This document shows positions 14,502-38,784 of a DNA stretch of 42,869 bases, piece by piece (positions within the stretch are counted from its first letter, which is position 1; each line of letters opens with the position of its first letter). This DNA comes from a virus, in IMG/VR virus record IMGVR_UViG_3300045922_000174. One strand, given 5' to 3'. A model generated the notes under the pieces. That model did no database searches. It saw nothing but the letters and a program-made list of their open reading frames with translations, and was not told the origin of the DNA. The position numbers were made by a program, and so were the translations under genes.

Positions 14502-14503
14502 GA

Positions 14504-16695: not shown

Positions 16696-16756
16696 TAAAC
16701 ACCTCCCAATCGGTTGGGCAGGTCGGGGGGCGCGACCTGCCCAACCATACCAGTAA

Positions 16757-18167: not shown

Positions 18168-18839
18168 TTATCTACCTCCTGATTTGATTTTCTGCTTCGC
18201 CAGTTCCCAAATTTGGTCTGGGTGTTTGACACCGGCAAGAGGGTCTGCCGCTGGTTGTGTGCCAACGGTAATCGGCAGCCCGCCTGTCGGCTTTGAAGCG
18301 GAGGTACGTTCTGACTTACTTTGCGCGGCTTTGATGACATTCACCAGTAATTCGGAAGGCGTCTTGGATTGCGCAATGATAGCCGCTTCTGGGTCTGTGT
18401 CGTCAATCGTCACGCCAAAGTGTGTCAGTATCTTGGCAACCGCATCCTGCATCACGTCTTGGGATTGTCCAACCGGTTTTTCCGTCTGCCCACTAGCCGG
18501 AACACTCGATTGGGTTTGTTCCTCTCGTCTTACCTGCTCTTCAGCCTTTTGGCGTAGTTTCTTCTCAACGTCCGGCGTCATTTCCTGCCCAATGTCTCTG
18601 AAAGCAGATGAGAGTTCCTCAAAACGCTGGTTGATACGGTGCATCATTTTGTCACGTGCGCTCTGTTGACGCTTATCGTACTCGCTCAAGGCGTTTGTGA
18701 TGGCGTCTGGTAGAACTTGTTTGACAACTTCTTGCACACGCTGGAGAATAACATCCGCGCCGCCATCCACAGGCTGTTGCTGTGAATGGTTTTCGTTGGG
18801 CTGGGCTCGTCCCACTAGGTCTTGAATATTATCTGTCAT
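18168..18839 (-). CDS. Scaffolding protein (putative)
   Basis: 223 aa, highly charged, helical and Gln-rich, immediately upstream of the major capsid gene. RBS is GGAGGAGG. Confidence 0.55.
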   Translation of the reverse strand: MTDNIQDLVGRAQPNENHSQQQPVDGGADVILQRVQEVVKQVLPDAITNALSEYDKRQQSARDKMMHRINQRFEELSSAFRDIGQEMTPDVEKKLRQKAEEQVRREEQTQSSVPASGQTEKPVGQSQDVMQDAVAKILTHFGVTIDDTDPEAAIIAQSKTPSELLVNVIKAAQSKSERTSASKPTGGLPITVGTQPAADPLAGVKHPDQIWELAKQKIKSGGR

Positions 18840-18876: not shown

Positions 18877-21800
18877 TTATTCAATAGTTGGCAGAACCGC
18901 ATTGTCAATCCAATCTTCCAGATTGCCCCACGGCTCTCCTAAACTGCGCCAAATGCGTTCGATTTCTAATCGCGCTCCCGGTAATAACGCCTCTCTACGA
19001 TACTTCAATGCGTACAACTGCATAATCAATCCTCTGGAGAAGCGTCTTAACTCGCTTGGCGTCAGATACGGACGCGCCGGCTTCGGCGATACACTTCGTG
19101 ATGTTCCTCCTGTGCCTGTTCCTGTGCTGGTTCTTCCACCTCCTCTTTCTCCTAAAATACTCCGTGCTAAACTTTCGTCTGTCAAAATGTACGGTGCGGC
19201 TTTGGGATATTGCGCCGCGAAATTGCGCTGGAACTCCCAATACTGTTCCAGTTCAGGATGCGCCGCTCTGAATGCACGCCGTTGCTGTTGCGGCAATGCG
19301 AAATAACGCTCCTGCAACTGGAAGATGTCCGGGAATAATTCGTCCCTCATCGCACGGTACATATAAACATACTGCTGAATTTCAGCAGGCAGACCGGCTA
19401 ACCGATTATTCTCGCCAATAACATACGGAATAATCTCTGGGTTTTCAGCAAGATACTTGTTCTGCCAACGAATAAACTCTTCGTTGTTCTCCGGTTGCTT
19501 CTCGAATAAAGCCCGCAAGGGGTCTGTCTGTTGCGGCGTCTCGCTCCGCGGGAACAGTCTATCGCGCTCTTCATAGTACTGCTTCACCTTCGCTCGCACA
19601 TTTTCGGGAAGCCAATTTATCTCCATCTTTGCATCATGGACATTCTCCAATGGCTTTTCCCCTAACGTGTTCGCCCACAGTGCTAACGTATCGGTGTCAA
19701 TACTGCCGTACGAACGTGTCTTCTTATCCAAGAATAACTCGGTGAACTTGTTTCCAGCCATCTGCTTGAACATACGCTGGGAAGCCGGGTCGAGGTCAAG
19801 GTATCGTTCCCAAATTCTCGAAATCAGGAATGCACGCAGTCGGCTTTGCGGGTTTTTCATCGCCATTCGCCGCGCATCATATTCAGGATATTTCTCCCAA
19901 AACTTGTTCACCGCTTGCGTGTCACCCTTTTCCTGCGCCTCATACGCTTTGGTCAATTCGTTCTTCAGCGCACGCATTTCGGCTTCGCCTTCCGGGAAGA
20001 TGTCCAGTGCTACACCAGCACCAAGCATCCGTACGAAACCGGTTTGCGATACGCGCCGTTGTGCTTCTTCGAATGCTTCTCCTTTCCGCTCAATCATGGC
20101 ACGAATGGCGGTCTGCTCATCCAGAAGACCATCCGCAACCATGTTGGATAATTCACGGTCAACACGATAATCTTCCCAACGGTCAATCTTGGGCAAGCCG
20201 GTGGCTGTTCTCACAAGACCTTCGATGTTGATGCCACGCGGGCCCCCAATGCCAAGCGCACCAGTAATGTTCTGGATGGTTCTGGTCAATGGCATTTGAC
20301 CAATGCGTTCCGGTGTTCCCATTGCATACTGATACGCAATGCCAATCGGCAGACTGGGCCCGTAAATGCTGAACAACATATCGGCACTATTGCGATATTC
20401 TCGTTCGGTCTCATTCTCCGCCTGTGCGTACGCTCGCTTCCAGATGGGCGTATTCCGCTTCCGCAAGGCTTCCTGTAATTGCGCATCGGTGATTTCCTCG
20501 TTGTCACGCATCTCTTTCAAGATGCTCTCTGTCTTGCGTATCAGCATGTTGCGCTCTTCGGCGATTTCTACAAACGGTGTCGCCAATTGCAGGAACGGGA
20601 ATATCTGCCTGTATGGGTCAACATATCCATACTGACCCATCCACTCCGGCAGGAACGGCAACGGAATAGGTACTTTCCCTTTCAATCGTTGCGGGAAGCC
20701 ATCCTTTTCCTCGCGGCGGGAAGCCATGCGCATCAGACGGTAGTAATTCGCCAAGATGGACGGCTTGTTCGCCATGCGAAGCAACCAGTTTATCATCGTG
20801 CGGGTGTACCAGAACTGGTATGGGAACACCGCCGATAGCAACGTATCGTAGCCATGCCGTCTGTCGTAATTCAGCAAAGCGAAATCACGGCGGGTTTCAC
20901 CCCAACGGATTGCGCCCATTCGAGTATCCGCAAGATTGGAGTACACACCACCCAAGTATCGCCATAAATTGTCTTCGGTCTCTTTCGGAATGCGGACGCC
21001 GCCGGCTTTCTCTGGACTGAACGCATCCAATGCCCGGTTTTTGGCTCTGTCCAGAATTGGCAACACATCTCGCAATGTGCCTTCCAGCATCGCATCACGC
21101 ATGGGCGCGTCTCTCATGCTATCGTATGTGCCTAATGGCGCGCCGACTGCATCGGCTACTCTTGGCTGTTCTCCGGCTGGTTGCTCTCCGGTTGGCTGTT
21201 CTCCAACGGGTTCTCCAACGGGTTGTTCTCTGACTGGTTGCTCTCCGAAGAGTTCGGTGATGGGTTCTCCGGCTGGCTCTGGCTGTCTTCCAGCGGTACT
21301 GTCCATGACCTCACCAACGGGCGCAACGGGGGCAGTTTCTGCGGGTGGTTCTGTGACGGTTCGTGCTGTTTCTCTTGGTACATCTTGTATCACCTCAAAT
21401 CGCACATTGTTTCTGGATGCCGCCGCATCGAACAAATCTTGCTTGCTTATCCTGCCAACGTCAAACATGGTCATCTGGTTTGCTGGCGGCTGTTTCAATG
21501 CCATGTCTACATACGTGCGGATAACCGCATCCAGCTTGCGTGTCTCACGTCCAACATCGTCAATCATCTTGACTAAACTGCGCTGAAAGCCGGTCAGGTC
21601 ATCGGTTGGGAACAACGTGGCTTGGCTCAAAAATTCCTTGACGGACATGCCCTGTTGCTTCAGTCTGGCTATCACGTCCACCGCGGCACTCAAATCATTG
21701 GCAATGCTGTATTCTGGTGAGACCACACCCATCCCGATTTGCGCTTCCAAATTCGCCATTGCTGGAAGCGTGCGGAATAACACGCTTTGCAGGGAACGGA

Positions 21801-24800
21801 TGCTCACGTCTAGACTTTCGGAGAATGCGGTAATCAATCTCGCGCCGGCTTCATTGGCATAAACCCGCGCAAACATGGCATTGATGATGCGCTGGGCTCC
21901 AACAGAAGACAATCTGCCGCTTGCGTCCATCATCGAAGCGCGTTCGTTGGCTGGCAACTGTTGAACGAAACTGCGCACAAAATCGGCATTCTTCGAGGAT
22001 GCGATAATCGGGACAACCTCATTGACGTTCTCCGGGAATTGGATATTCTTCAATGCTTCGTCACTGATAAATTTCGCATCCTGTAATGCCTTTTCGGCAG
22101 GTGACATTGCCATCACCGCGATTTGATTGGCTTCACGTGCAAATGCCGCCCGGTCAACGTCATCTTTTCGTACTCGAACCAATATCGGATTTTCTATTCC
22201 GCTGATGTCTATGCCTAGCTCTTGGGCGCGCATTGCCAAAGCATTTTGATACTGTTGCCATTTATCAGGATAATTCTCCTTTGCAAAGCGTAATGCCATT
22301 GCACGTCCGTTCCCGCTCTCAACAACGAAATCGGGCCCGACAATTATGGGGCCCCGGTCAATATATGGACTGTCATTCAGCAATTCGCCTGGGCTTAATT
22401 CGGACGCAATGCGATTAACTTGGTCACGGCTTGCGGCGCGTCCACGAACACGCGGTTGCAGTTCGCTGGGATACGCTGGATTTTCGCTGAAATTATCCAG
22501 ATGGCTGATGACCAACTGGTCAAGCGGGACAACCTGATATTCAAAGTGATACACCTTATTCACGTCTTGACCACGTGCCGTAGTCAGCCGCGATGCCTGT
22601 TCTGGTTGTGGAACTTCCTGCCGCAACACCGGCACTTCAGGTTGGCTCATCAGGTCATGAACGTATGTGGCGTTCTCAAATTCCTTGTCAACCTTTGTCT
22701 TGGGCAGTCCATACGGTTCTTCAGACAACCACTTGTCGAACACCGAACGGATGTTTTCGTCCAGTACAATCGGTTCTCCTCCCGATATGATGTTGCGAAT
22801 GCTCTTGTAAATATCCAGTAGCCATCGTTTGAACTTCTCAAAGATAGACTTCATGCGATGATTGGGTGCTTTCCCTTCGGCAAGATATTTCTCGAATGCC
22901 GTTGCAAATAATTCTTTCTCTCTTCGATGGGTGCGCGTGCCATACTGCCATCCTTCGGGAAGGTCTTCAATCTGGTAGACGCTTTTCAACCAGCGTTCGA
23001 CTGCGGCAATATCGTCCTTTGGAAGCATGGTCAGGAACGAGTGCGCCGTTTCGTGGACGAGTGTAGAAATGTCTCCACTTTGCTTGAAGATGGTAATCAA
23101 CGCCTTACCATCTTTCATGAATTGCGTCATACCTTTGGGAATGTCCTCGTCTGCCGGTCTTCTGCTGAAGAGTGGCTGTCCTTCCAGCACGCTCCTGCGC
23201 ATGGCATCGGTAATGGGGACGAACAGGAACTCGTTTGGTTCTCCCGGCAAATACATTGCTTCTGGCTCAACGCCCCATTTCTTCACATAGTCTTCGATTT
23301 TACGCGGCAGAATTTCATCGTAGAACTTCTTCAATCCACCGTGCGTAGTGTCGTAGGAAAGCCGGTTGAATGTTATGTTGCCTTCTTTCAAGAGACGATT
23401 GATATGTTCCAGCGAAAATTCTCCATCCACAAGTGATTTATTTAGCCTGTCATGCAAGACTTGTGCGGCATTTTCCACTGGAAGACGAACATATTCACTG
23501 AAAAGATACTCGTATCCTTCATCAGGTGTGTACACGTAGTATTCCAGTTTGTGAAAACCGTCCCCTGTGTTCCGTATTTCAATTTTCTCTATTGGAACGG
23601 CATATCTTCTGGTATGAATATCACCGCTTGCTATAAGAATGCCATCCATTTTCCGTTCGGCGGCGTAGTGAAGCATCCGCTTGAACACCAAAATATCCCA
23701 TTTCTTCGCAAATGGCATTTCTTGGTAGCCAAATTCTCGCAATATCTTATCTGCCATTTGCGGTGATGTTTTTGTTTCTTTATCCGCTTCGAACTGTTTT
23801 TGCTTTTGACGTAGCTCTTCGAAGAAGTCACTTTGGATTTCATCCACGTAAAGTACGCGCTCGCCGGTGTCTAATGTCAGTTCTTTGGTTCGTGCATGGG
23901 CAACTATGCCGTAATCTTCAAAATGCGTAGAACGATAAATAGCAGTTCTCGCATCTGGCATTTTTTCTTTTTCATAAGTTATCTTGAAAATATTATCTGG
24001 CTTTTCCGAACTTCGAAATCTCAATTCGACTTTTCCATCCGGTTCGACTTTGTAGTCTATTAAGTTTTCCAAACCATAAACTCTGAATGTGTCATAAATG
24101 TTAAGTTTCAAACTATGAACATCCAACGTTTTTGTTATATCGGGCATACCTGCTCTTTCAATGCGAATAGTTCCCCGATAGGCGTCTCTCATTGTTATAG
24201 GTACAAGCACGAACTCACGATAATTTTTACCACTGCCATATTTCAATTCGGAGAATTTTGGCATGTACTGTTCATATTTTGTTCGTCCCAATCCCATCTG
24301 TTCTTCTAACAATCTTTTCCAGACAGTGGGTCTTTCTTCTCTAAATTGAGGATTTTTCTCCTTCAGAGACCGCATAATGTCGTCCACTTTCAGGACTAAC
24401 TTTTCTAAATTTTTCCTCGTCAACCCCTCTATTTTTGTCAATGTAGCCAATTCGACAGAGTTTCTTTGCAGATACTCCATCAGCTCTGCTTTTGTGACGT
24501 AATCTTTTCGGGCAATATATTCGTCCAATCCCGTCCAAAGCATTTCTTCTCGTGACAGACCACGCTTTTTGAGATAACCCAAGAATTGCCCGCTGGACAT
24601 GCGCTCCTGCGGCATGGTCTCCACTGCCCTGAAAGTCGGAGAATAGTACCAGCTCGCCGGCTCATCCGGCGATTTTCTACGCTGGAACAACGGCAAACCC
24701 TCTTCTACGCTGTGTCTCATTTCCCACGTGATGGGGATTTTTGTCAGGTCAACCTTGCCCAACTTTTCCGTTTTTACGGTTTCTGTTTCGGGAACAACAT

Positions 24801-27800: not shown

Positions 27801-30800
27801 AAAGACCCATCCAGCGAAGCTCTTCATCCTTCACCTGCGCGCTTTTCAGAATGTTTAGCCATTGATTCGCCGGTGCTTTCTCAACTTTTGCCCCCTCAAT
27901 CGCCTGTTGCGATTTCAAGTAATACCATTGACTACTTACGTAACGGGACTGTTTCAAATCCTCTTCGTCAACCGGTAAATCCTTGTACTGGATAATAAAT
28001 CTTTCGTAGAACGCATCCGGTGTCGTGTTGTATTCTCTTGCGTAATGGCTCGCCATCGCATCCCAAATCTTCAGCATGGCATCGGCTTGCTCTAACGCTT
28101 TCCGCTCGTCTCTCATCCGCTCCGTGAGAAACTCCAGAACCCCTTGATAAGCCACCTGTCGGGCATACTCCGGCTCATCTGCCCGCGCCAAGACATCATT
28201 CATGTTCAGCTCAATCACGCGCGCCATCTGTTCTGCCTGTTGCATCCAATTGCCTTGCGCAAGCGGTTCGGACGGCGGTTCTGTCGTTTCTCCTTCCACC
28301 TTCTCCAGAGAGTATGTGGAACGGTCATACTTCATAAAATTCGGGTCGGCGTTTCGTTGCGCCTCGGACGCCTTCAATACTTGATATACATCCTCAATAG
28401 ACGGGATGTCGCTCAACTTCCCAACGGCATAGTGCATCATCATTCCGGTATATCGCTCGATTTGCCCGGTCTCGCTGTTTTTCATGGTCAGTGTGCCATG
28501 CAACACCCGTTCCTGAATTTGCTTGGCGTAATTTTCGGCGTCCTTTTTCTTCTCGAAAATCGCCGCAAATTCATCACCACCAATCCGATATAGACTGACA
28601 CCTAAACTGTCCGCCACATCCCCAATGTACTGAATGTATGCGTTCCCAACCAAATCACCAAATTTCTTATTGGTGAGATGCAGACCGCGCAAATCAAACG
28701 CAATAGTCCAGTATGACTTCGGCTTCTTTGCCCTTTTATTCTGCTCCGCCAATTTCTCAAGGTCTTTTATCATCCGCCCTTTGTTGCGGAAACCGTACGT
28801 ATCATGGTCGGCTTCAAAATCTCTGCTCTCCAACGCCCGCGCCATATACACCGCTTGCTCGGACAATGCGTCTTTCGGCATTTGCCCAACGTCTTGAAGC
28901 GGCGCAATGTCATAACCGGCATTGAATCGGTCAATCCGTTTCGTTTTCTTTTTCTCTTGAATGGCGCGCAATAAGACCGGAACAGTAATATCTTTGATGC
29001 TCCGAACGTATTCATATTGTGCATAGGCTCTCACGAAATTAATCAAATGCTGTTCAGAACCTTTCAACGGTCTGCCTTGCGCATCCACCTGTCTGAATTC
29101 TGGTAATTCCTGTGCAACCAGTTTCCAGATAATTTGCTCTTGCCGTCTTTGCTCTTCAAATACGGCATCGTATGGTTGCGATGGAACGTATGTAGACTGC
29201 GGCTTTTCTTCTGCCGGCTTGACCTCCGCCGTTTCGGCTACGGGTTGTGCCTGTTCGGTCTGCGCCCGTGTTTCTGGTCTCAAATTTAATTCCGGCTTTT
29301 CCAGTGACGTGCTTCCCACCGCATTTCGATTGGACGTGTCCAGCAGTTCGGCAATCAAAGGCTGATAAATCGTCTGATAGAATATCTGATTGATTCTTTC
29401 CCTTTCGCGGACTGCAATCCGATGAATGGGAACGCCCTGATTCAGCTCAAGGATTCTCTGCTTCACCTCCGGTTCGAGTAAATCGCCCCACTCATCCAGA
29501 AACTCTTGCGGGATTTGTCCTTCCCGGAAGAGTAACGTTGCTTGTTGCGTGCGGCGGCGAACACGTTGTACGCTTTCACGCCAACGCATCGCATCCAGAT
29601 AGGCTTGTGGGTCACCATTCATCTGTTGCTGATACTGCCGTGCAAACGACTTGTTCAGACTGTCTTGTAGCAAATCTTCGGCAAGTATCATGAAGCGATA
29701 CTCTCTGGCAACTTGGGCATTCACTTCTTCCCAAGCCGTAGCACGCGCTTCGGCGCGCATGTTTTCCGGCATCGTTTCATCCGCATCAATTCGTTCAATG
29801 ACGCTCCAGTAGTTATCAAACGCATCCTTGCGTGTCTGATAAAAATTCCGGTAGGTGGCGTAAATATTCAGCAAGGTGGTTTCTGCGCTAACGTATTCCG
29901 GGCTTGCCTCCTCCGCGCCAAGTCCCTTGAAGATGCCCAACCACGTTGCCCCTTCCTGATTTTGGTACAACGTCCAGAAAGCATCTTGCTGTTCAAATAA
30001 TTTGCGCCATTCTCTTGCACGTTCTGCACCGGTTAAATTGCGGATTTCTTCGGCACGCATCTCCATCTGGAACATGTGATTCAGCCACACTTCGGCAAGC
30101 ATGGACGTTGCTCTATCGGCTTCATCCAGCACCGCTTGTGTCTTCTCCACATGCGCTTTTTGTGCGGCTTCCTCCACCCGCCCTTCAATGTTGCGCATTG
30201 TCTCATTGACCAAATCACGAACCAAACCACTGCGCGCTCTTTCAAATACATCTGCAATGTCTTGCTTCGAACGTGCATTGCGCAACCCCTCATCCAACTC
30301 ATCGTACATTTCGGGGAAATGCTGTTTCAAGAAATTCCGTTCTTGCCGGGTCAGAACATCGTCAAGCGAACGGGTGTCAATCTCCTTGAAAATCTTCCTC
30401 TCAATCGCTTCTTTGCTCATCCCGCTTTCGATGGCGCGCTTCACCTTATCCGCAAGACCGGGCTTGACCGTATCCAGCGCAAGGCGAAGTTCATCGCTCA
30501 TCCGCTCAAAGGCAACACCTTCTCGCCATGCGTTCTTGAAATACTCATCTATGCCATTTATCATGGCAATTTCGCTTGCCCATCGCTCTACCTTCTGCGA
30601 TAGAATGCCAAATACCTGCGCTTTCTTTCCCTTCTTCAGGAAATTGATGACACCTGCCATTGCGCCTTGCGCTTCTTTGGCTTCCTCGATATGTCGCCCA
30701 ATCCGTTCGCCTTTGGCAATCCCTTTCTTCCCGACAATCTCCTCCACACGCCCAAATTCAACATCGCCAATCTCTGCCGCACCAATACCCTGACGCAAAC

Positions 30801-33228
30801 GGGTGGGCTCCATGTCGAAATCACGCAAGAACTTCATGCGCGCTTTCGGACTGCGCCGGTTGAGTAAGCCGTCCCACGCCAACGTGACAATGTTGTTCAA
30901 TGCATTGTTCACGAAATAAGTCGGGTTCAACCCCAACAGTAAATAGCCTTGAACGCGCTTGTTGATGTCTATCAACGCTTCGCCCAAGCCCATCTTCTTC
31001 AAGCCGAAATATCGCGCTGACCATTCGTCTGCATGGTCAGCAAGCAAGGTAATCAGATGATAACGAAATACATCCGGGTCAAAAGCCGGCGCTTTCGCTC
31101 CATAGAAACCATCCGCAATTTGTTTCAGTTTCTTTGCACCGTCCGGGTCAACCGTAAAAGCGTTTAGCACCTCATACGTTCGCTTCCCCGCATCTGACAG
31201 TTTCTGATAATCCCCCAATGACTGTATCGCATCACGCAAGAGGGCTTGCGCTTTCGCATTGTCCCCAACGTGCAGGTCACGCAATACGGCGTATGGCTCT
31301 TGTCCCAATGCCAATGCCAATACATGAATCACCCGTCTTTCTGGCTCCGCCTTCTGGTAATTCGCCAACAACTCTTCCACCTTTGGCATGGCGTCACGAA
31401 TTGCCAACGGAACGTGTTGCGCCTCTGTGCTGGAGAACCAGCGCGGCAATGGCGCATCTACCAATTTGCCGCCAACACTCATCTTTATCGTCCCGGTTGC
31501 GGCTTGCACTGCATCTTCGGGTGTAAGATTAGCAATGCTCCTGACCAAATCCACCATGTTTTCGGGACTTTTCTTCTCCAGCGTCATCAGATTGGTCAAG
31601 CCGTCCACCGTGTTCTGTAACACGGACACGGCACGCGCTTTTGGCGTCAGACCGAAAACATTGGCATACAGACTGCTGACTAAATTCTTGTTTTCCGGTT
31701 TGGTGAAGTCAATCACACGCCCTTGACTGTCCAAGCCGGCGATGAAGCGTGCCAACGGATTGAGTTTTGCGGCTTGGTCAACCGGCAACTGGCGTGCTAA
31801 ATGGGCATAATATCGCGCTCCGGTCAATAAATCGGGAACACGCCCGGGCTGTTTCAAAAATGCTTCTGCCGCCATCGGATGTCCGGTGAGTTGTGCCGTT
31901 TTCCCAATCGCCTTTGAACCGACAACACCGGTCAAATCCAATGGGTCAAGGACGTAACCGCCAATCAAATCAGCAAATTCACCGCTGAAGCCAAACTGCA
32001 TCGTGTACCAGTTCAGGACTTCATCCGGTGTTATATCGCCGCGTGCCAATGCACGGCGCATTTCGGTCAACGCCCATTGGGTTGGCATTCCCTTTGGCGT
32101 GATAATGCTCTCATCTTGTGGTCTGGTGAGTTCAATTCGTGTAAATCCCGGCGTTCCTTTTCCGGTGAGTTGCTCCAGAAGCACTTCAATTTGCGCTGGA
32201 ACAGTGGCGTACAAACCACGTCCAGCCGCCGCGGCGGCTTCCCAATTCTTCAAAATCTCTTCGACTGAACCGTACTGTTCAGGGTCAATTGCTGAATACA
32301 ATAATTGCGTCAAAATACCAAGCAATTCCTGACTTTTACGGTACGGCTCATCTAGCAATGCCAATGCTTTCAACCAACCGGGCTCTTGATACACGCCGCC
32401 GCTGGCAATGATTTGTTGGGCGCGCTCCATCTCCTTGTACTGCGCCACGCCAAGTCCAGCACCACCCGCCAATCCGATGACACCACCAACCGGGCCCGCA
32501 AAAGCAAGACCTAAAATCCCGAAATTGAGTGCCGATTGTGCCGCCTGACCGGGCATGGTGCGGAAGATTGCCAATGCGGCTTTCTTCCAATCCGGCAATT
32601 GCTTCCACGTTTCCTCGTCAATCCCATACTGCGTCCAGGGCCCCACTGTGCCAACCTGTTTTGGCGGCACATACAAGCCAATATTCTTGGCTACCTCGAA
32701 CGACCGTGCCAATTGCTGACGTTCCCAATCCGGTATCGCTTCAATCGGCGGTGCAGGCATTTGCTTTACAAAATCGTGAAGCGGGTCATCCTTGCTGATT
32801 TGTCCCCAATTTATCCAGTCATCGCCGTATCTGGCGGTCAATTCTTTGTAAGCGGCTTCCAGTTTCGGCATGTCCAGCCATGCAGGCGGTTGAATGTCCG
32901 GCATGGTCTTGATGGCATTGTAGTATCGTCCAATCCGGCGTGCATCCGTCCAGAAATTCCCACCGGAGTTCCGGTCTTGCGCCACCCAATATTCTCCCAT
33001 CGGGCCCGGAATTTGCGGACGCGCAATTTCCATGCCCATTTCGGCGAACCGTTGTTGTACCAACGGATTATTGATGAACTCCTGCGATACATTCCAGAAA
33101 TACTCACCACCCGGCAGGTTAAAACGACCCACACCGGGCGATTTCTGATACTGCTCCGGCGTGTATTTGGGTGCTGGAATAGGAGTAATTTTGTTTGTCG
33201 GTGCGCCGTATGGGATTTTGGTTGCCAT
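18877..33228 (-). CDS. Giant multidomain virion-associated 'polyvalent' protein (4,783 aa) in the minor-head-protein (MuF) slot
   Basis: An uninterrupted reading frame of 14.35 kb. The likely start is ATG 33228 (MATKIPYG...) after GGAGGAT, overlapping the upstream stop (TGATG); the track start at 33261 has no RBS. It lies between the portal block and scaffold/capsid. It contains a glycine-zipper TM segment, a GGDEF-like domain, three repeated modules, an HExxH zincin and a ParB-like domain. Confidence 0.85.
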   Translation of the reverse strand: MATKIPYGAPTNKITPIPAPKYTPEQYQKSPGVGRFNLPGGEYFWNVSQEFINNPLVQQRFAEMGMEIARPQIPGPMGEYWVAQDRNSGGNFWTDARRIGRYYNAIKTMPDIQPPAWLDMPKLEAAYKELTARYGDDWINWGQISKDDPLHDFVKQMPAPPIEAIPDWERQQLARSFEVAKNIGLYVPPKQVGTVGPWTQYGIDEETWKQLPDWKKAALAIFRTMPGQAAQSALNFGILGLAFAGPVGGVIGLAGGAGLGVAQYKEMERAQQIIASGGVYQEPGWLKALALLDEPYRKSQELLGILTQLLYSAIDPEQYGSVEEILKNWEAAAAAGRGLYATVPAQIEVLLEQLTGKGTPGFTRIELTRPQDESIITPKGMPTQWALTEMRRALARGDITPDEVLNWYTMQFGFSGEFADLIGGYVLDPLDLTGVVGSKAIGKTAQLTGHPMAAEAFLKQPGRVPDLLTGARYYAHLARQLPVDQAAKLNPLARFIAGLDSQGRVIDFTKPENKNLVSSLYANVFGLTPKARAVSVLQNTVDGLTNLMTLEKKSPENMVDLVRSIANLTPEDAVQAATGTIKMSVGGKLVDAPLPRWFSSTEAQHVPLAIRDAMPKVEELLANYQKAEPERRVIHVLALALGQEPYAVLRDLHVGDNAKAQALLRDAIQSLGDYQKLSDAGKRTYEVLNAFTVDPDGAKKLKQIADGFYGAKAPAFDPDVFRYHLITLLADHADEWSARYFGLKKMGLGEALIDINKRVQGYLLLGLNPTYFVNNALNNIVTLAWDGLLNRRSPKARMKFLRDFDMEPTRLRQGIGAAEIGDVEFGRVEEIVGKKGIAKGERIGRHIEEAKEAQGAMAGVINFLKKGKKAQVFGILSQKVERWASEIAMINGIDEYFKNAWREGVAFERMSDELRLALDTVKPGLADKVKRAIESGMSKEAIERKIFKEIDTRSLDDVLTRQERNFLKQHFPEMYDELDEGLRNARSKQDIADVFERARSGLVRDLVNETMRNIEGRVEEAAQKAHVEKTQAVLDEADRATSMLAEVWLNHMFQMEMRAEEIRNLTGAERAREWRKLFEQQDAFWTLYQNQEGATWLGIFKGLGAEEASPEYVSAETTLLNIYATYRNFYQTRKDAFDNYWSVIERIDADETMPENMRAEARATAWEEVNAQVAREYRFMILAEDLLQDSLNKSFARQYQQQMNGDPQAYLDAMRWRESVQRVRRRTQQATLLFREGQIPQEFLDEWGDLLEPEVKQRILELNQGVPIHRIAVRERERINQIFYQTIYQPLIAELLDTSNRNAVGSTSLEKPELNLRPETRAQTEQAQPVAETAEVKPAEEKPQSTYVPSQPYDAVFEEQRRQEQIIWKLVAQELPEFRQVDAQGRPLKGSEQHLINFVRAYAQYEYVRSIKDITVPVLLRAIQEKKKTKRIDRFNAGYDIAPLQDVGQMPKDALSEQAVYMARALESRDFEADHDTYGFRNKGRMIKDLEKLAEQNKRAKKPKSYWTIAFDLRGLHLTNKKFGDLVGNAYIQYIGDVADSLGVSLYRIGGDEFAAIFEKKKDAENYAKQIQERVLHGTLTMKNSETGQIERYTGMMMHYAVGKLSDIPSIEDVYQVLKASEAQRNADPNFMKYDRSTYSLEKVEGETTEPPSEPLAQGNWMQQAEQMARVIELNMNDVLARADEPEYARQVAYQGVLEFLTERMRDERKALEQADAMLKIWDAMASHYAREYNTTPDAFYERFIIQYKDLPVDEEDLKQSRYVSSQWYYLKSQQAIEGAKVEKAPANQWLNILKSAQVKDEELRWMGLSNYLASKGNEVVTKQDLIDYLETEATQVMSVKDFSIRRKYFPKYELYSTYRETIRRGKDSADLREKFLGYNELLLQLPLYYTDSLPPDVELVPDNVLKGGYAIRDKYYGTVYEVDKTPHEAIRNFILGNYVYQSPHWSELNPIVHVRYTGFQHAGRTILYIDEIQSDWHQAGRRYGYFGELDRTLPEGYKIVDTGDTLGEKRIYAILDKRGLAITQIDSGDFERYQETGILPRYAALWIAQVENKVPPAPFSKNWDELAIKRMLRYAIEEGYSMIAISPGKVHEERWDLSKGIERLQVTFEDDGTGKPDFTKSVTLLIYPTEGKNEIERVNTYRELPSYIGEKLTEHVMQKADEGQILIDVDKEMLKTANAGVGKFYDERLIATANKYLKKWGKAFQYKEDALPFLWEPGAWVLDVDEPRMIDDLLAGQPLFQRVGNKWYSSKLLEEIDKARVNKATIGEWKRYLLGRGVSENEIYWSGVFDLFDDNDILTRGWLRQEIEYRYPDVKTLYNRAKRFGREKEKIADIEQSGKPIYGEYSYVAQSGGDYVELLLLNEHQGRTWSVAGDARVFADNPYDVTKLEALELLRTAVRQKERWARLHGEKLDVEWRTSKDGRSIEVYVDRELLASAQLNINFRHAWSDVAGTHWRKAGYWADRLLDKNEPLPFLHVRGGKIRTKNGKKAFFAEEIQSDLFQAKKLEFVNAEDGLPQRVERLDPTKFSFQLHFEKTIDDYALPREPEVALYDIYYNGIKTGRQAAGWLVERFKENPDEIISYLEQKKDFTYVIYGKKVLFFADESDLYYDPERYFRNFVNDFPFSDTKKWVELGLKRALHYAVKATDADYFILPSGVMNAALYYNTKKSPEKIEIMIAKNAPYLYQLLVDDDYSKGIFGYGRVNYLPSDPETNTAITLVNNPEHRAFLKNQLKEYIPHEHMIDQILDALVKQLQSGKYTEGKADYFNYLTVTIKLPKDNGVVITENPGLVYFYDKVVQSVATKLFKKWNVVPETETVKTEKLGKVDLTKIPITWEMRHSVEEGLPLFQRRKSPDEPASWYYSPTFRAVETMPQERMSSGQFLGYLKKRGLSREEMLWTGLDEYIARKDYVTKAELMEYLQRNSVELATLTKIEGLTRKNLEKLVLKVDDIMRSLKEKNPQFREERPTVWKRLLEEQMGLGRTKYEQYMPKFSELKYGSGKNYREFVLVPITMRDAYRGTIRIERAGMPDITKTLDVHSLKLNIYDTFRVYGLENLIDYKVEPDGKVELRFRSSEKPDNIFKITYEKEKMPDARTAIYRSTHFEDYGIVAHARTKELTLDTGERVLYVDEIQSDFFEELRQKQKQFEADKETKTSPQMADKILREFGYQEMPFAKKWDILVFKRMLHYAAERKMDGILIASGDIHTRRYAVPIEKIEIRNTGDGFHKLEYYVYTPDEGYEYLFSEYVRLPVENAAQVLHDRLNKSLVDGEFSLEHINRLLKEGNITFNRLSYDTTHGGLKKFYDEILPRKIEDYVKKWGVEPEAMYLPGEPNEFLFVPITDAMRRSVLEGQPLFSRRPADEDIPKGMTQFMKDGKALITIFKQSGDISTLVHETAHSFLTMLPKDDIAAVERWLKSVYQIEDLPEGWQYGTRTHRREKELFATAFEKYLAEGKAPNHRMKSIFEKFKRWLLDIYKSIRNIISGGEPIVLDENIRSVFDKWLSEEPYGLPKTKVDKEFENATYVHDLMSQPEVPVLRQEVPQPEQASRLTTARGQDVNKVYHFEYQVVPLDQLVISHLDNFSENPAYPSELQPRVRGRAASRDQVNRIASELSPGELLNDSPYIDRGPIIVGPDFVVESGNGRAMALRFAKENYPDKWQQYQNALAMRAQELGIDISGIENPILVRVRKDDVDRAAFAREANQIAVMAMSPAEKALQDAKFISDEALKNIQFPENVNEVVPIIASSKNADFVRSFVQQLPANERASMMDASGRLSSVGAQRIINAMFARVYANEAGARLITAFSESLDVSIRSLQSVLFRTLPAMANLEAQIGMGVVSPEYSIANDLSAAVDVIARLKQQGMSVKEFLSQATLFPTDDLTGFQRSLVKMIDDVGRETRKLDAVIRTYVDMALKQPPANQMTMFDVGRISKQDLFDAAASRNNVRFEVIQDVPRETARTVTEPPAETAPVAPVGEVMDSTAGRQPEPAGEPITELFGEQPVREQPVGEPVGEQPTGEQPAGEQPRVADAVGAPLGTYDSMRDAPMRDAMLEGTLRDVLPILDRAKNRALDAFSPEKAGGVRIPKETEDNLWRYLGGVYSNLADTRMGAIRWGETRRDFALLNYDRRHGYDTLLSAVFPYQFWYTRTMINWLLRMANKPSILANYYRLMRMASRREEKDGFPQRLKGKVPIPLPFLPEWMGQYGYVDPYRQIFPFLQLATPFVEIAEERNMLIRKTESILKEMRDNEEITDAQLQEALRKRNTPIWKRAYAQAENETEREYRNSADMLFSIYGPSLPIGIAYQYAMGTPERIGQMPLTRTIQNITGALGIGGPRGINIEGLVRTATGLPKIDRWEDYRVDRELSNMVADGLLDEQTAIRAMIERKGEAFEEAQRRVSQTGFVRMLGAGVALDIFPEGEAEMRALKNELTKAYEAQEKGDTQAVNKFWEKYPEYDARRMAMKNPQSRLRAFLISRIWERYLDLDPASQRMFKQMAGNKFTELFLDKKTRSYGSIDTDTLALWANTLGEKPLENVHDAKMEINWLPENVRAKVKQYYEERDRLFPRSETPQQTDPLRALFEKQPENNEEFIRWQNKYLAENPEIIPYVIGENNRLAGLPAEIQQYVYMYRAMRDELFPDIFQLQERYFALPQQQRRAFRAAHPELEQYWEFQRNFAAQYPKAAPYILTDESLARSILGERGGGRTSTGTGTGGTSRSVSPKPARPYLTPSELRRFSRGLIMQLYALKYRREALLPGARLEIERIWRSLGEPWGNLEDWIDNAVLPTIE
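21160..21255. repeat. Short imperfect tandem repeats encoding a Pro/Glu/Gly-rich linker (GEQPx units)
   Basis: The protein reads ELFGEQPVREQPVGEPVGEQPTGEQPAGEQPRV. The DNA shows reiterated ggctgttctcc / ggttgctctcc / gggttctcc units. Confidence 0.7.
22160..22557 (-). other. ParB/sulfiredoxin-fold (ParB-like nuclease, DdrB-type) domain
   Basis: VPLDQLVISH...ELQPRVRGRAASRDQVNRIASELSPGELLNDSPYIDRGPIIVGPDFVVESGNGRAMALRFA contains the LQPRxR and (S)GNGR motifs characteristic of ParB-like domains in polyvalent proteins. Confidence 0.6.
22800..23140 (-). other. Zincin-like metallopeptidase domain (HExxH) of the type found in phage/plasmid polyvalent proteins
   Basis: ISTLVHETAHSFL places HETAH at 23041..23055. 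It is followed by ELFATAFEKYLAEGKAPNHRMKSIFEKFKRWLLDIYKSI, which matches the HExxH ... ExFAxxFExY pattern I associate with polyvalent-protein metallopeptidases. Confidence 0.6.
23158..24651 (-). other. Repeated module copy 3 (about 498 aa) in the giant protein
   Basis: Ordered motifs are WYYSPTFRAVE...QFLGYLKKRGLSREEMLWTGLDEYI, then AHART...VLYVDEIQSDFFE, PFAKKWDILVFKRMLHYAAERKMDGILIASG, KFYDEILPRKIEDYVKKWG and GQPLFSRR. Confidence 0.7.
24652..26495 (-). other. Repeated module copy 2 (about 614 aa) in the giant protein
   Basis: Ordered motifs are WYSSKLLEEIDKA...EWKRYLLGRGVSENEIYWSGVFDLF, then LHVRG...FFAEEIQSDLFQ, PFSDTKKWVELGLKRALHYAVKATDADYFILPSG, YFYDKVVQSVATKLFKKWN and GLPLFQRR. Confidence 0.7.
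26496..27936 (-). other. Repeated module copy 1 (about 480 aa) of unknown function in the giant protein
   Basis: Ordered motifs are WYYLKSQQAIEG...QWLNILKSAQVKDEELRWMGLSNYL, then HVRY...ILYIDEIQSDWHQ, PFSKNWDELAIKRMLRYAIEEGYSMIAISPG, KFYDERLIATANKYLKKWG and GQPLFQR. Confidence 0.7.
28420..28820 (-). other. GGDEF-type (diguanylate-cyclase-like) nucleotide cyclase domain within the giant protein
   Basis: HDTYGFRNKGRMIKDLEKL (compare DxLTGLxNRR) ... YWTIAFDLRGLHLTNKKFGDLVGNAYIQYIGDVA (compare DIDxFKxxNDxxGHxxGD) ... VSLYRIGGDEFAAIF (a literal GGDEF at 28567..28581) ... MMHYAVGK (compare SIGVA). Confidence 0.75.
32440..32590 (-). other. Glycine-zipper / hydrophobic segment within the giant protein
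   Basis: ALAIFRTMPGQAAQSALNFGILGLAFAGPVGGVIGLAGGAGLGVAQY is the only strongly hydrophobic Gly-rich stretch near the N-terminus (roughly residues 215-260). Confidence 0.5.
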
Positions 33229-33740
33229 CAAATCCTCCAATTCATGACCGCAAGATACCATTCAGGTAGTTGATTTGTGCCGGCTCCGCCGCCATAGCCG
33301 CCACCATAGCCACCACCGCCACCACCGGCGAAATTGACCGGAGATGGTCTGGTTTCCTGCATCGGATAATTCAATGCCATCGCCGTCAGCCGCTGACCAT
33401 AGGTACGCCATCCACGTTGATTGGCATAATACCTTGCCCAATCCATCGGCGTCCAGTACTTCTGCTGGTAAGTGTAACGGTTGACCATTTCTTTATTGGT
33501 GTAGTAACGCGCCAATGCGTTCATCCGTGCAGAATACGCCTGTTGTGGTCTGTACGTCTGCGCCAACCCTGTCATCCGTTGGGCATACGCATTCTGCGAA
33601 CGCGATTGTTGCGTTAACGTCTGTGCTGTCGGTGCAAAAGACGGTGGTCTGGTGTAATTCCCCAATCCAGTACTGCCACCGCCACCCGTAGAAACACGGT
33701 CAATCAAATTCCTCATCCATTCAGGAATATTGCTTGCCAT
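33228..33740 (-). CDS. Hypothetical head-module protein (170 aa) with three 13-aa repeats and a Gly/Tyr-rich tail
   Basis: ATG at 33740 (MASNIPEWMRN...) after GGAGGAG. The repeats are AYAQRMTGLAQTY, AYSARMNALARYY and TYGQRLTAMALNY. The C-terminus reads FAGGGGGGYGGGYGGGAG. Confidence 0.65.
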   Translation of the reverse strand: MASNIPEWMRNLIDRVSTGGGGSTGLGNYTRPPSFAPTAQTLTQQSRSQNAYAQRMTGLAQTYRPQQAYSARMNALARYYTNKEMVNRYTYQQKYWTPMDWARYYANQRGWRTYGQRLTAMALNYPMQETRPSPVNFAGGGGGGYGGGYGGGAGTNQLPEWYLAVMNWRI

Positions 33741-38099: not shown

Positions 38100-38118
38100 G
38101 CGTCACCTCCTACCACCC

Positions 38119-38147: not shown

Positions 38148-38154
38148 TCATTCA

Positions 38155-38690: not shown

Positions 38691-38784
38691 ATGTAACAAC
38701 AGAATGTTACAAATGATAACGGACATTGCGCGCGCGGAAAGTTTCCAGTGAGAGACACTCTCAAAACTGGTGAATTTTGGGGAC

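What the first reader, a model, noticed from the sequence alone, without database searches (positions are those of the whole stretch)
18877..33228. One uninterrupted 14.35-kb ORF (4,783 aa, one third of the genome) in the MuF slot: candidate ejected multi-effector polyvalent protein
The ORF sits where SPP1-like head modules carry the minor head protein: after the portal and two small genes, before scaffold and capsid. It has no internal stops, and its start is coupled to the upstream gene. By eye it contains, in order: an N-terminal region with a glycine-zipper hydrophobic segment; ~1,300 aa of helical sequence; a GGDEF-type cyclase-like domain; three tandem copies of an unrecognised large module; an HExxH zincin; a ParB-like domain; a PE-rich repeat linker; and a ~1,150-aa C-terminal region with hydrophobic stretches. 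Zincin and ParB-like domains fused into very large head-packaged proteins define the 'polyvalent protein' class, which is proposed to be injected with the DNA to counter host defences. This example is exceptionally large for a 42.7-kb podovirus-like genome. Most of its length is unassigned.
Basis: partly seen in the sequence, partly recalled or inferred. Interest (0 to 1): 0.85.

Follow-up and report, generated by a model that had tools for sequence, protein, structure and literature searches.

The report
Giant cargo-carrying phage head protein
One third of this small phage genome is a single real gene whose conserved ends form an uncharacterised carrier and whose middle holds swappable enzyme cargo, probably packed into the virus head and shot into the host; the general type is known, but this carrier and one of its cargo modules are not.

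Summary
The 14,352-nt ORF (minus strand, 18877-33228, 4,783 aa) is real. An identical product comes from an independent assembly, and two allelic variants keep the frame open. It takes up 33.6% of a circularly closed 42,742-bp podovirus-like genome and lies between a probable portal and the scaffold/capsid genes. GGDEF, ddrB-ParB, a lethal-factor-like HExxH zincin, three tandem modules, a PE-rich linker and an N-terminal Gly-zipper are all confirmed.

It fits the polyvalent proteins of Iyer et al. 2017. It is not exceptional in size. Its first 1,200 aa define a family of at least 389 clusters, typically 2,000-5,560 aa long. Conserved N-terminal (~1,240 aa) and C-terminal (~700 aa) parts flank a variable centre of 92-3,885 aa. 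That centre carries ParB, ART, GGDEF, helicase or methylase domains, or the unnamed module.

The backbone has no Pfam, PHROG or PDB relative and no detectable MuF, T7 or P22 homology. Zincin presence tracks cargo size. The ~500-aa module folds confidently without a PDB match. The three copies are divergent paralogues. Copies 2-3 are the only part of the protein where the alleles differ.

Packaging and ejection are inferred, not shown. Verdict: a new variant of a known kind; interest 0.58.

The parts
18877..33228 (-). Giant ORF, 4,783 aa plus stop codon
   Evidence: An identical product occurs in an independent assembly.
33226..33240 (-). Ribosome-binding site GGAGG and the start ATG, which overlaps the TGA of the upstream gene (translational coupling)
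31657..33228 (-). N1, aa 1-524: N-terminal carrier region with no family assignment
   Evidence: The word-indexed search and Pfam/PHROGs find nothing. Local phmmer nevertheless finds it in 100 of 150 family representatives.
32452..32532 (-). Gly-zipper hydrophobic segment, aa 233-259. This is the only strongly hydrophobic stretch in the protein.
   Evidence: A Gly-zipper-like pattern occurs in the first 500 aa of 102 of 150 relatives. The family consensus reads GAxxGxxxxGPxGAxxGxxxGxG.
29506..31656 (-). N2, aa 525-1241: conserved N-terminal backbone of the carrier
   Evidence: It aligns to aa 386-1081 of the MW202608 2,156-aa protein. It is the core of the 389-member family.
28792..29505 (-). 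L1, aa 1242-1479: start of the variable centre, including an acidic, Pro-rich linker
   Evidence: no family. Found in 20 of 150 relatives.
28417..28791 (-). GGDEF nucleotide-cyclase domain, aa 1480-1604. The GGDEF motif is at aa 1550. Two family-consensus Asp residues near the base site are replaced by K and N.
   Evidence: Pfam PF00990, 28.6 bits against a cut-off of 23.8. Motif register; family consensus.
27952..28416 (-). L2, aa 1605-1759: unassigned spacer
   Evidence: no family. Found in 10 of 150 relatives.
26491..27951 (-). Module copy 1, aa 1760-2246: unnamed ~500-aa domain with motifs DEIQSD, PF..K.W, FYD..KKWG and GQPLFQR
   Evidence: AF2 model with pLDDT 81.5 and pTM 0.80. No PDB match. 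25 BFVD matches.
24670..26490 (-). Module copy 2, aa 2247-2853: the most divergent copy and the allelic hot spot
23152..24666 (-). Module copy 3, aa 2855-3359: also an allelic hot spot
22609..23151 (-). Zincin region, aa 3360-3540, with HETAH at aa 3392 (window 23041-23055) and ELFATAF at aa 3439
   Evidence: phrog_9880, E 1e-21. Motifs. Family-wide conservation of HE..H and AEExFAxxFERYLAEG. No Pfam model hit.
21394..22608 (-). ddrB-type ParB block, aa 3541-3945. The Pfam core is aa 3558-3688 (window 22165-22557).
   Evidence: PF18763, E 6e-27. phrog_5143, E 3e-60. VESGNGR and ELQPRVRGRAAS are intact. The block is absent from the closest relative, P0051.
20962..21393 (-). PE-rich repeat linker, aa 3946-4089
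18880..20961 (-). C-terminal backbone of the carrier, aa 4090-4783, predicted all-helical
   Evidence: E 2e-78 to aa 1510-2050 of the MW202608 protein. Present at the extreme C-terminus of 134 of 150 family representatives. AF2 pLDDT 67.
33942..35696 (-). Probable portal protein, 584 aa
   Evidence: Weak phrog_64 hit, E 5.5e-4, and its position after TerL.
33228..33782 (-). Small upstream gene with a Gly/Tyr-rich C-terminus, translationally coupled to the giant ORF. It was called as 170 aa in L044.
18168..18839 (-). 223-aa gene, scaffold by position only
   Evidence: No family hit. Its position is conserved in L005, L006 and L044.
17161..18165 (-). Major capsid protein
   Evidence: phrog_212, E 2e-30.

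Best explanation
The ORF encodes a carrier-plus-cargo polyvalent protein.

Carrier. The conserved N-terminal ~1,240 aa (with a conserved Gly-zipper hydrophobic segment) and the C-terminal ~700 aa (helical) together form a ~2,000-aa backbone. Every phage of this lineage encodes it between the portal and the scaffold/capsid genes. I infer that this backbone gets the protein built into the procapsid. I also infer that it is expelled through the short tail at infection and does the work of an ejection protein in crossing the cell envelope.

Cargo. The 2,850-aa centre is a cargo bay. It holds a GGDEF nucleotide cyclase, three divergent paralogues of an unnamed and probably enzymatic ~500-aa module, a lethal-factor-like zincin, and a DdrB-type ParB domain. 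These parts are separated by Pro/Glu-rich linkers.

Release and action. I infer that the zincin cuts the polyprotein, either in the head or after entry. The freed pieces would then act in the first minutes of infection on host nucleotide signalling, host DNA or restriction, and other defences.

What is shown: the architecture, the gene position, the intact catalytic motifs, the link between zincin and cargo, and the allelic hot spot.

What is inferred: packaging, ejection, cleavage and the targets.
For: Real gene in the late head operon. It is translationally coupled to the upstream gene, and the same position is seen in relatives.

Bipartite carrier.
- aa 525-1241 and aa 4090-4686 match one 2,156-aa protein of podovirus MW202608, where only ~430 aa lie between the two matches.
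- 389 representatives match the N-terminal part.
- 134 of the best 150 also end with the C-terminal part, a median of 1 aa from the protein's end. The centre between the two parts is 92-3,885 aa long.

Cargo varies. ddrB-ParB, ART-PolyVal, GGDEF, SNF2/Sno-type helicases, a methyltransferase and SLT all occur. The ParB block is missing from the closest relative.

Zincin tracks cargo. The 92 members with the zincin have a median centre of 1,549 aa. The 41 members without it have a median of 458 aa and no HExxH in the centre at all.

Catalytic motifs are intact in the GGDEF, zincin and ParB parts and in all three module copies.

Links to ejection.
- A conserved hydrophobic Gly-zipper.
- An SLT lytic transglycosylase fused to the C-terminus of the backbone in six relatives.
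- No other ejection-protein candidate among the late genes.
- The module also occurs in gp34 of the isolated pelagiphage HTVC028P. That gene lies between two genes annotated as internal virion proteins.

Precedent. The polyvalent protein gp47 of podovirus phi24B (2,811 aa) was found in virions by proteomics and proposed to be an ejection protein. Iyer et al. argue that late-encoded polyvalent proteins are packaged and then processed by their metallopeptidase.

Arms-race signature. All differences among three alleles fall in modules 2-3 and form mosaic blocks. dS there is 0.10-0.48 against 0.004-0.009 elsewhere, with dN/dS of 0.4-0.7.
Against: - There are no virion proteomics, no isolate and no known host.
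- The backbone shows no detectable homology to T7 gp14/15/16, P22 gp7, HTVC028P gp33/35, SPP1 gp7 or Mu F. The only hint is one weak PF16928 Inj_translocase hit in 1 of 13 minimal relatives.
- The C-terminal model is of moderate quality and has no structural match.
- The zincin could itself be an effector rather than a processing enzyme. No cleavage site is known, and the zincin matches no Pfam metallopeptidase model.
- The module's function is unknown.
- The GGDEF copy departs from the family consensus at two Asp positions, so it may have a different product or weak activity.
- A 530-kDa protein has to fit into a presumably T=7 head together with 42.7 kb of DNA, so the copy number must be low. 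This is my inference.
Confidence: 0.6

Rival explanations
1. The protein is essentially structural. In this view the backbone is an internal core or ejectosome, and the enzyme-like domains serve genome delivery rather than host manipulation. The ParB block would hold or pilot the phage DNA end, the zincin would cut peptidoglycan peptides or mature the head, and the modules would be spacers.
For: Cargo-free members of ~2,000 aa exist, so the backbone alone is sufficient. Some relatives carry an SLT. The phi24B authors propose an envelope-degrading role for their protein's metallopeptidase. SPP1 gp7 and Mu F are described as DNA-pilot or minor head proteins.
Against: The cargo repertoire in the family (ART-PolyVal, SNF2 helicase plus methylase, GGDEF, DdrB-ParB) is the classic host-directed, counter-defence set of polyvalent proteins. 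Cargo is gained and lost between close relatives. Modules 2-3 are the fastest-diverging part, which is not expected of spacers.
Confidence: 0.2
2. The protein is not packaged. It would be a late-expressed cytoplasmic multi-enzyme, for example for superinfection exclusion, late host manipulation or virion modification.
For: No direct evidence of packaging exists. A glycosyltransferase gene also sits inside the structural module, so not every gene in this block has to be a virion component.
Against: The gene is translationally coupled inside the portal-scaffold-capsid block, and this position is conserved across divergent relatives. DdrB-ParB domains are typical of head-packaged proteins such as those of the P1 Dar system. 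A Gly-zipper and SLT fusions make little sense for a cytoplasmic enzyme.
Confidence: 0.1
3. The backbone is a very divergent MuF-family head protein, so the whole protein is an ordinary MuF-anchored polyvalent protein.
For: Its position immediately after the portal matches SPP1 gene 7 and Mu gene F. The module is fused to a MuF_C domain in one unrelated protein, P0017.
Against: No Phage_Mu_F signal appears in this protein or in 27 relatives. BLASTP, HMM search and hhalign against SPP1 gp7 and Mu F give nothing, with hhalign probability at or below 0.4%. The backbone is ~2,000 aa and bipartite, unlike a ~110-aa MuF domain.
Confidence: 0.08
4. The giant ORF is an assembly chimera or hides frameshifts. 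The low-GC module block would be the suspicious part.
For: The module block has GC 0.41-0.45 and GC3 0.37-0.45, against about 0.50 and 0.54-0.60 in the flanks. All the data come from short-read assemblies.
Against: An identical 4,783-aa product comes from an independent Logan assembly, a full-length allele exists, and a third contig spans both junctions of the block. The relative P0051 has modules in the same place. Hundreds of relatives are 2-5.5 thousand aa long. Purifying selection is visible.
Confidence: 0.02

Closest known systems
Phage-type polyvalent proteins (Iyer, Burroughs, Anand, de Souza and Aravind 2017, PMC5512222), for example the Acetonema longum prophage protein with GGDEF + SNF2 + MTase + zincin + ART
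   Same: Many unrelated effector domains in one late-encoded polypeptide. It contains ddrB-ParB, GGDEF and a zincin-like peptidase. Packaging, ejection and self-processing are predicted for it. Domain content is mosaic and turns over fast.
   Different: The carrier here is not MuF, portal, DarA-N or an N4 RNAP. It is an undescribed bipartite backbone (N-terminal ~1,240 aa plus C-terminal ~700 aa) with the cargo inserted in the middle. Neither the backbone nor the ~500-aa module hits any Pfam model, including the LPD models that Pfam holds.
Phage P1 DdrB/DarB head-packaged anti-restriction proteins
   Same: The ParB block is homologous to P1 DdrB (tblastn E 2e-29; PF18763). DdrB also carries a metallopeptidase and is packaged into the head.
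   Different: P1 is a myovirus with separate Dar proteins. Here the ParB is one optional insert in a 4,783-aa protein and is absent from the closest relative.
phi24B gp47 (bioRxiv 10.64898/2026.04.10.717836)
   Same: A very large (2,811 aa) polyvalent protein of a podovirus with a metallopeptidase. It was found in virions by proteomics, is invisible in cryo-EM, and was proposed to be an encapsidated ejection protein.
   Different: It has different domains (LPD5, LPD1, LPD38, MuF-C). The backbone searches of the phage collection did not recover it.
Ejection (internal virion) proteins of podoviruses: T7 gp14/15/16 and P22 gp7/20/16
   Same: The inferred role is the same: stored in the head, expelled, spanning the envelope. 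A hydrophobic segment is present, and some family members carry an SLT lytic transglycosylase, as T7 gp16 does.
   Different: No sequence or profile similarity was found. There is one polypeptide instead of three. The gene lies upstream of scaffold and capsid rather than after the tail genes.
N4-like virion RNA polymerase (~3,500 aa)
   Same: A giant single protein that a podovirus encapsidates and ejects. Iyer et al. note a zincin domain in it.
   Different: No RNA polymerase domain was detected here. The cargo is a set of unrelated enzymes.
MuF minor head proteins (SPP1 gp7, Mu F) and MuF-toxin fusions
   Same: The gene position is the same, directly after the portal. Conceptually, both are a head anchor with effectors attached.
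   Different: No detectable homology. Here the effectors lie between two carrier halves, not at the C-terminus.
Pelagibacter phage HTVC028P gp34
   Same: It contains the same unnamed module (profile E 1.5e-71), and it lies among genes annotated as internal virion proteins.
   Different: It is 954 aa long with a single module copy, in T7-like gene order, and has no homologue of the bipartite backbone.

Membership tests
Polyvalent proteins (Iyer et al. 2017) | Several domains of unrelated biochemical activity in one polypeptide | tested here: met
   GGDEF, ddrB-ParB, an HExxH zincin and three copies of an unnamed module.
Polyvalent proteins (Iyer et al. 2017) | Encoded among virion or late genes of a phage with a portal-terminase system | tested here: met
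   TerS, TerL, probable portal, giant ORF, capsid, adaptor. The same order is seen in relatives.
Polyvalent proteins (Iyer et al. 2017) | Contains family-typical marker domains such as DdrB-ParB, ART-PolyVal or MPTase | tested here: met
   PF18763, E 6e-27. Relatives with the same backbone carry ART-PolyVal and SNF2 plus MTase.
Polyvalent proteins (Iyer et al. 2017) | Delivered into the host with the DNA | not testable with these tools
   This needs virion proteomics and ejection assays.
MuF / Phage_Mu_F (PF04233) minor head proteins | Presence of the MuF domain | tested here: not met
   No hit in the protein, even at E<5 on separate segments, nor in 14 plus 13 relatives. BLASTP, HMM search and hhalign against SPP1 gp7 and Mu F are negative.
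MuF / Phage_Mu_F (PF04233) minor head proteins | Gene located just downstream of the portal gene | tested here: met
   Two small ORFs intervene.
GGDEF diguanylate cyclases (PF00990) | Match above Pfam's gathering score and an intact GG(D/E)EF motif | tested here: met
   28.6 bits against a cut-off of 23.8. RIGGDEF at aa 1548-1554.
GGDEF diguanylate cyclases (PF00990) | Canonical guanine-contacting Asn and Asp | tested here: inconclusive
   The Asn is kept. The family-consensus TND..G..AGD reads TNKKFGDLVGN here. The PleD register was taken from a sequence recalled from memory.
GGDEF diguanylate cyclases (PF00990) | c-di-GMP synthesis | not testable with these tools
   This needs an enzyme assay.
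DdrB-like ParB domains (PF18763) | Profile match and the conserved active-site Arg in the G-x-G-R loop | tested here: met
   E 6e-27 over 118 of the 121 profile positions (4-121). VESGNGR is conserved in about 90% or more of 27 family copies and is intact here.
Zincin metallopeptidases | HExxH plus a downstream third zinc ligand | tested here: met
   HETAH at aa 3392 and E3439 in ELFATAF. HE..H and AEExFAxxFERY are conserved across 98 family copies. The resemblance to the anthrax lethal factor motif is from memory.
Zincin metallopeptidases | Membership of a curated peptidase family, for example Pfam's MPTase-PolyVal | tested here: not met
   No Pfam hit for aa 3360-3540 at E<5. The only match is phrog_9880, of unknown function.
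Podovirus ejection proteins (T7 gp14-16, P22 gp7/20/16) | Sequence or profile homology | tested here: not met
   hmmsearch finds nothing, and hhalign probability is at or below 3%. The P22 gp16 and gp20 hhalign runs timed out. One of 13 relatives hits PF16928 weakly, E 0.0045.
Podovirus ejection proteins (T7 gp14-16, P22 gp7/20/16) | Membrane-active segment and/or a peptidoglycan hydrolase | tested here: inconclusive
   One conserved Gly-zipper hydrophobic segment. An SLT is found only in six relatives, not in this protein.
   No such hit in Pfam, PHROGs or PDB.

The most novel reading that the evidence does not exclude
The ~2,000-aa bipartite backbone is a previously unrecognised single-chain DNA ejectosome. 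It would be used by a large, wholly uncultivated clade of ~40-kb podoviruses in place of the three-protein T7/P22 system. Its middle would be a plug-in cargo bay whose contents a co-inherited zincin releases inside the host. The unnamed ~500-aa module would be a new enzyme fold that forms the main arms-race interface with host defences. It is present here as three specificity variants that recombine between co-circulating strains.
Probability: 0.3. Interest if true: 0.78.

Novelty: new variant of a known kind. Interest (0 to 1): 0.58.

Why it matters
Polyvalent proteins are thought to be the first viral proteins to act in an infected cell, yet very few have been studied experimentally.

- **A comparative data set.** This family gives hundreds of natural variants with one constant carrier and exchangeable cargo. 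They show which domains phages choose to deliver. The family also shows that a metallopeptidase travels with the cargo, which is a testable prediction about processing.
- **Uncharted parts.** Roughly 2,000 aa of carrier and a confidently folded ~500-aa module have no Pfam model and no PDB relative. PHROGs has nothing for the carrier and only one weak hit for the module (phrog_7348).
- **A pointer to selection.** The allelic mosaic confined to modules 2-3 marks the part under the strongest selective turnover, so it is the best candidate for a new counter-defence activity.
- **Possible application.** The carrier could in principle be adapted to load foreign proteins into phage heads.

Tried and rejected
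**Searches that found nothing**
- Megablast of 20 kb of the window against 50,697 phage records: no match.
- Whole protein, GGDEF segment and zincin+ParB segment against PDB sequences: nothing.
- Profiles of the module, the C-terminal backbone and the minimal backbone against PDB: only chance-level hits.
- PADLOC defence models: none.
- Word-indexed homology search with aa 1-524: nothing. The exhaustive HMMER scan later showed this region is conserved, so that negative was a sensitivity limit.

**Structure searches**
- Foldseek of the module model against PDB: best E 0.05 and TM at or below 0.11. The weak GNAT/chimallin-like hits have probability below 0.3, so I rejected them as evidence.
- Foldseek of the C-terminal model against PDB: nothing, but the model is only pLDDT 67.

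**Homology to known head and ejection proteins**
- hhalign and HMM search against T7, P22 and HTVC028P ejection proteins and against SPP1 gp7 and Mu F: negative. Two hhalign runs (P22 gp16 and gp20) timed out.

**Other negatives**
- The genome scan for hosts returned only two MAG contigs (Chloroflexota and WWE3 bins). These may be binned phage DNA, so I make no host call.
- BLAST self-comparison at E<=1e-3 missed the repeats. Pairwise comparison of the excised copies found them.
- I rejected recent tandem duplication as the origin of the three modules. m1 and m3 are closer to modules in other phages than to each other.
- I rejected the assembly-chimera reading.


Full report
**1.

The window contains one uninterrupted ORF on the minus strand.
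- The longest version starts at 33261. The start at 33228 has a GGAGG 5 nt upstream, and its ATG shares the A of the upstream gene's TGA. This gives 4,783 aa.
- The window ends repeat 127 bp exactly. The genome is therefore a closed circle of 42,742 bp, and the gene fills 33.6% of it.

Independent assemblies support contiguity.
- A Logan assembly of run SRR30649436 carries a gene with the identical 4,783-aa product, between the same neighbours.
- A full-length allele, P0200, is 98.1% identical.
- IMG/VR contig L002 is 95-99% identical at the DNA level and keeps the frame open over all 3,902 codons it covers.

The neighbours are TerS, TerL, a probable portal, two small genes, the giant gene, a 223-aa unassigned gene, the major capsid protein and an SU10-type adaptor. 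No isolated phage is close at the DNA level, and the best TerL match is 44% identical.

**2. Anatomy of the protein**

- **ParB and GGDEF.** Pfam finds ddrB-ParB (aa 3558-3688, E 6e-27) and GGDEF (aa 1480-1604, above the gathering score).
- **Zincin.** The only HExxH in the protein is HETAH at aa 3392, and ELFATAF follows at aa 3439. From memory, this arrangement resembles the HExxH...ExFAxxF of anthrax lethal factor. No Pfam peptidase model matches. The region does match phrog_9880.
- **Modules.** Three tandem modules (aa 1760-2246, 2244-2853, 2855-3359) are related at BLAST E 5e-21, 2.5e-10 and 1.6e-6. They share (D/E)EIQSD, PF..K.W, FYD..KKWG and a terminal G(Q/L)PLF(Q/S)R.
- **Hydrophobic segment.** The one strongly hydrophobic stretch is a Gly-zipper at aa 233-259.
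- **Linker.** A Pro/Glu-rich repeat linker precedes the last ~700 aa.

**3. The ends are one conserved carrier, and the enzymes sit in an insert**

tblastn against phages found a 41.8-kb uncultured podovirus, MW202608. Its 2,156-aa protein lies in the same slot (TerL, portal-like gene, LysM protein, this protein, small gene, scaffold-like gene, capsid). It matches our aa 525-1241 and aa 4090-4686 (E 2e-78). Only ~430 aa lie between the two matches there, against ~2,850 aa here.

An exhaustive HMMER scan with aa 1-1200 against 1.84 billion representatives found 389 proteins at E<=1e-3 and 129 at E<=1e-30. The match is at or near the N-terminus of the hit in almost every case. Among the best 150, the median length is 3,076 aa and the maximum is 5,560 aa. 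Twelve are at least 4,783 aa long, counting this protein's own entry.

- In 134 of those 150 the C-terminal backbone is also present, and it ends a median of 1 aa from the protein's end.
- The stretch between the two backbone parts ranges from 92 to 3,885 aa, with a median of 1,291. Ours, at 2,849, ranks 14th of 133.
- Thirty IMG/VR loci carry the backbone, mostly on 36-45-kb contigs. A homologue of our capsid protein lies 0.7-4 kb downstream in at least 12 of them.

So this protein is an upper-range member of a large family, not an outlier.

**4. What the variable centre carries**

- Truncated relatives of the C-terminal part have ddrB-ParB, ART-PolyVal or GGDEF just upstream of it, or SLT after it.
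- Among 14 full-length members, Pfam finds ddrB-ParB in 4, ART-PolyVal in 4 and GGDEF in 2. One member each carries Sno/SNF2-type helicase domains, ResIII/Helicase_C and a methyltransferase.
- Local searches with our own segments against the 150 find the zincin in 98, the module in 31, ParB in 27 and GGDEF in 18.

This is the domain repertoire of the polyvalent proteins described by Iyer et al. 2017. They already report GGDEF, zincin MPTase and DdrB-ParB in such proteins. They also propose packaging, injection and metallopeptidase processing.

The zincin goes with cargo. The 92 members that have it show a median centre of 1,549 aa. The 41 without it show a median of 458 aa and contain no HExxH in the centre. 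HE..H and AEExFAxxFERYLAEG are strongly conserved across the family, as are ParB's VESGNGR and ELQPRxRxRAAS, and all are intact here. Our GGDEF keeps the GGDEF motif but replaces two family-consensus Asp residues near the base-binding site (TND..G..AGD becomes TNKKFGDLVGN).

**5. The carrier is uncharacterised**

- Thirteen cargo-free members (~2,000 aa) have no credible Pfam family. There is one weak Inj_translocase hit (P22 injectosome, E 0.0045) and one C19orf12-like (Gly-zipper) hit.
- PHROGs has nothing for either backbone half. Sequence profiles find nothing in the PDB.
- HMM search and hhalign against T7 gp14/15/16, P22 gp7, HTVC028P gp33/35, SPP1 gp7 and Mu F are all negative.
- The C-terminal 694 aa are predicted all-helical at moderate confidence and have no fold match.

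The gene is therefore in the MuF position but is not a recognisable MuF protein, and it is not a recognisable homologue of the classical ejection proteins.

**6. The module**

- A profile of the three copies finds 35 unannotated relatives. One is fused to MuF_C, one to ART-PolyVal, and one carries a precomputed ParBc annotation that a direct Pfam scan did not reproduce.
- Across 34 sequences the invariant residues are E213, Q215, S216, D217, P300, W305, R312, G330 and Y427. H186, H195, R197, H219, K311 and D428 are nearly invariant. This looks like an active site. Most of these residues, including E213, Q215, S216, D217, H195, R197, K311, R312, Y427 and D428, are identical in all three of our copies.
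- AlphaFold2 gives pLDDT 81.5 and pTM 0.80. Foldseek finds no significant PDB match. It does find 25 matches in viral predicted structures (best E 9e-21). All are very large proteins of uncultured tailed phages, and several are labelled as polyvalent-associated, ART-PolyVal or lytic transglycosylase proteins.
- In the isolated pelagiphage HTVC028P the module forms aa 306-928 of gp34. That gene lies between genes annotated as internal virion proteins.
- Ours is the only family representative with three copies. The closest relative, P0051 (backbone 49-67% identical), has two, and the rest have at most one.
- The copies are not recent duplicates. m1 and m3 score higher against modules from other phages than against each other, and m2 is very divergent.
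- The block has lower GC3 (0.37-0.45 against 0.54-0.60), and the relative shows the same trend more weakly.

**7. An allelic hot spot**

Among three alleles (ours, P0200 and the L002/P0201 contig), essentially all protein differences lie between aa ~1750 and 3250, and nearly all of them in modules 2-3.
- P0200 shares the divergent blocks at aa 2251-2500 and 2751-3250 with P0201 but not the block at aa 2501-2750. This is a mosaic pattern.
- dS is 0.22 in m2 (0.48 in aa 2401-2600) and 0.10 in m3, against 0.004-0.009 elsewhere in the gene. dN/dS is 0.43-0.69.

This indicates recombinational exchange of diverged module segments between co-circulating strains, under relaxed but real constraint.

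**8. Mechanism**

*Shown:* late-operon position, translational coupling, the bipartite carrier, exchangeable cargo, intact catalytic motifs, and the link between zincin and cargo.

*Inferred:* the backbone directs incorporation into the procapsid and is expelled at infection. The arguments are as follows.
- A protein made late can act early only if it travels in the virion.
- The Gly-zipper is conserved.
- Six relatives carry an SLT at the C-terminus of the backbone.
- The remaining late genes include a fibre-like protein, an endolysin and replication genes, and none matches an ejection or internal virion protein.
- phi24B gp47 shows by proteomics that a podovirus can carry a polyvalent protein of ~2,800 aa in its virion.

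I further infer that the zincin releases the cargo. The GGDEF domain would then perturb nucleotide signalling, the DdrB-type ParB would act on DNA or restriction as in the P1 Dar system, and the three modules would target fast-evolving host factors. At about 530 kDa, only a few copies should fit in a presumably T=7 head. This estimate is my own.

**9. Verdict**

The kind of protein is known. The carrier family, the cargo-in-the-middle design, the zincin-cargo association, the unnamed module and its allelic mosaic are new details worth experimental follow-up.

Noticed in passing
window 1-127 and 42743-42869: An exact 127-bp terminal overlap. The contig is a circularly closed (or terminally redundant) genome of 42,742 bp.
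   Followed up: yes
window ~23500-26500 (aa ~2250-3250 of the giant protein): Three alleles of the gene differ almost only here, in mosaic blocks. dS is up to 0.48 against <0.01 elsewhere, and dN/dS is 0.4-0.7. This is a recombination hot spot inside modules 2-3.
   Followed up: partly
window 23152-27951: The module block has GC 0.41-0.45 and GC3 0.37-0.45, against GC3 0.54-0.60 in the rest of the gene. The relative L006 shows the same trend more weakly. The cargo is compositionally foreign.
   Followed up: partly
window 15995-16744 (-): A family-2 glycosyltransferase gene sits inside the structural module, two genes after the capsid gene. It is conserved in L006 and L044. The relative L004 has a glycosyltransferase plus several methyltransferases after its backbone gene. 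This may indicate virion glycosylation.
   Followed up: no
window 33228-33782 (-): The small upstream gene ends in a Gly/Tyr-rich low-complexity tail (GGGGGGYGGGYGGGAG...) and is translationally coupled to the giant ORF. It has no family hit. Its position is conserved in L006 and L044.
   Followed up: no
window 28417-28791 (aa 1480-1604): The GGDEF copy keeps the GGDEF motif but replaces two Asp residues of the family consensus near the base-binding site (TND..G..AGD becomes TNKKFGDLVGN). It also lacks an RxxD I-site upstream of the motif. Nucleotide specificity may be altered.
   Followed up: partly
L004:1001-4510 (P0007); also P0009, P0011, P0171, P0176, P0179: In six relatives an SLT lytic transglycosylase is appended to the C-terminus of the backbone. 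In L004 the C-terminal backbone is called as a separate 1,169-aa gene that starts at the stop of a preceding ORF running off the contig, so the gene may be split there.
   Followed up: partly
L039:7072-9936 (Pelagibacter phage HTVC028P gp34): An isolated pelagiphage carries the unnamed module (E 1.5e-71) in a 954-aa protein among its internal virion protein genes. This is a cultivable system in which the module could be studied.
   Followed up: partly
window 10935-14510 (-): The 1,191-aa protein directly after the SU10-type adaptor has no Pfam or PHROG match. By position it is probably the nozzle or tail body. It is conserved in L006 (1,181 aa).
   Followed up: no
window 1189-5931 (-) and 38098-42180 (+): RecT-like annealase, a DnaD-like loader and a sliding-clamp-like processivity factor lie on the same strand as the late genes. 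A block of small plus-strand ORFs at 38.1-42.2 kb is transcribed divergently from TerS, with a GC-skew switch near 38 kb.
   Followed up: no
L007 (Chloroflexota MAG contig) and L008 (WWE3 MAG contig): The only hits for the backbone in species-representative genomes are short MAG contigs. These are probably phage fragments binned with the MAGs, so they are not reliable host evidence.
   Followed up: no
window 23152-27951, module C-termini (aa 2239-2245, 2846-2852, 3352-3358): Each module ends with G(Q/L)PLF(Q/S)R, and GQPL is also conserved at the module's end in unrelated proteins. This is a candidate recognition or cleavage site for the adjacent zincin. It has not been tested.
   Followed up: no
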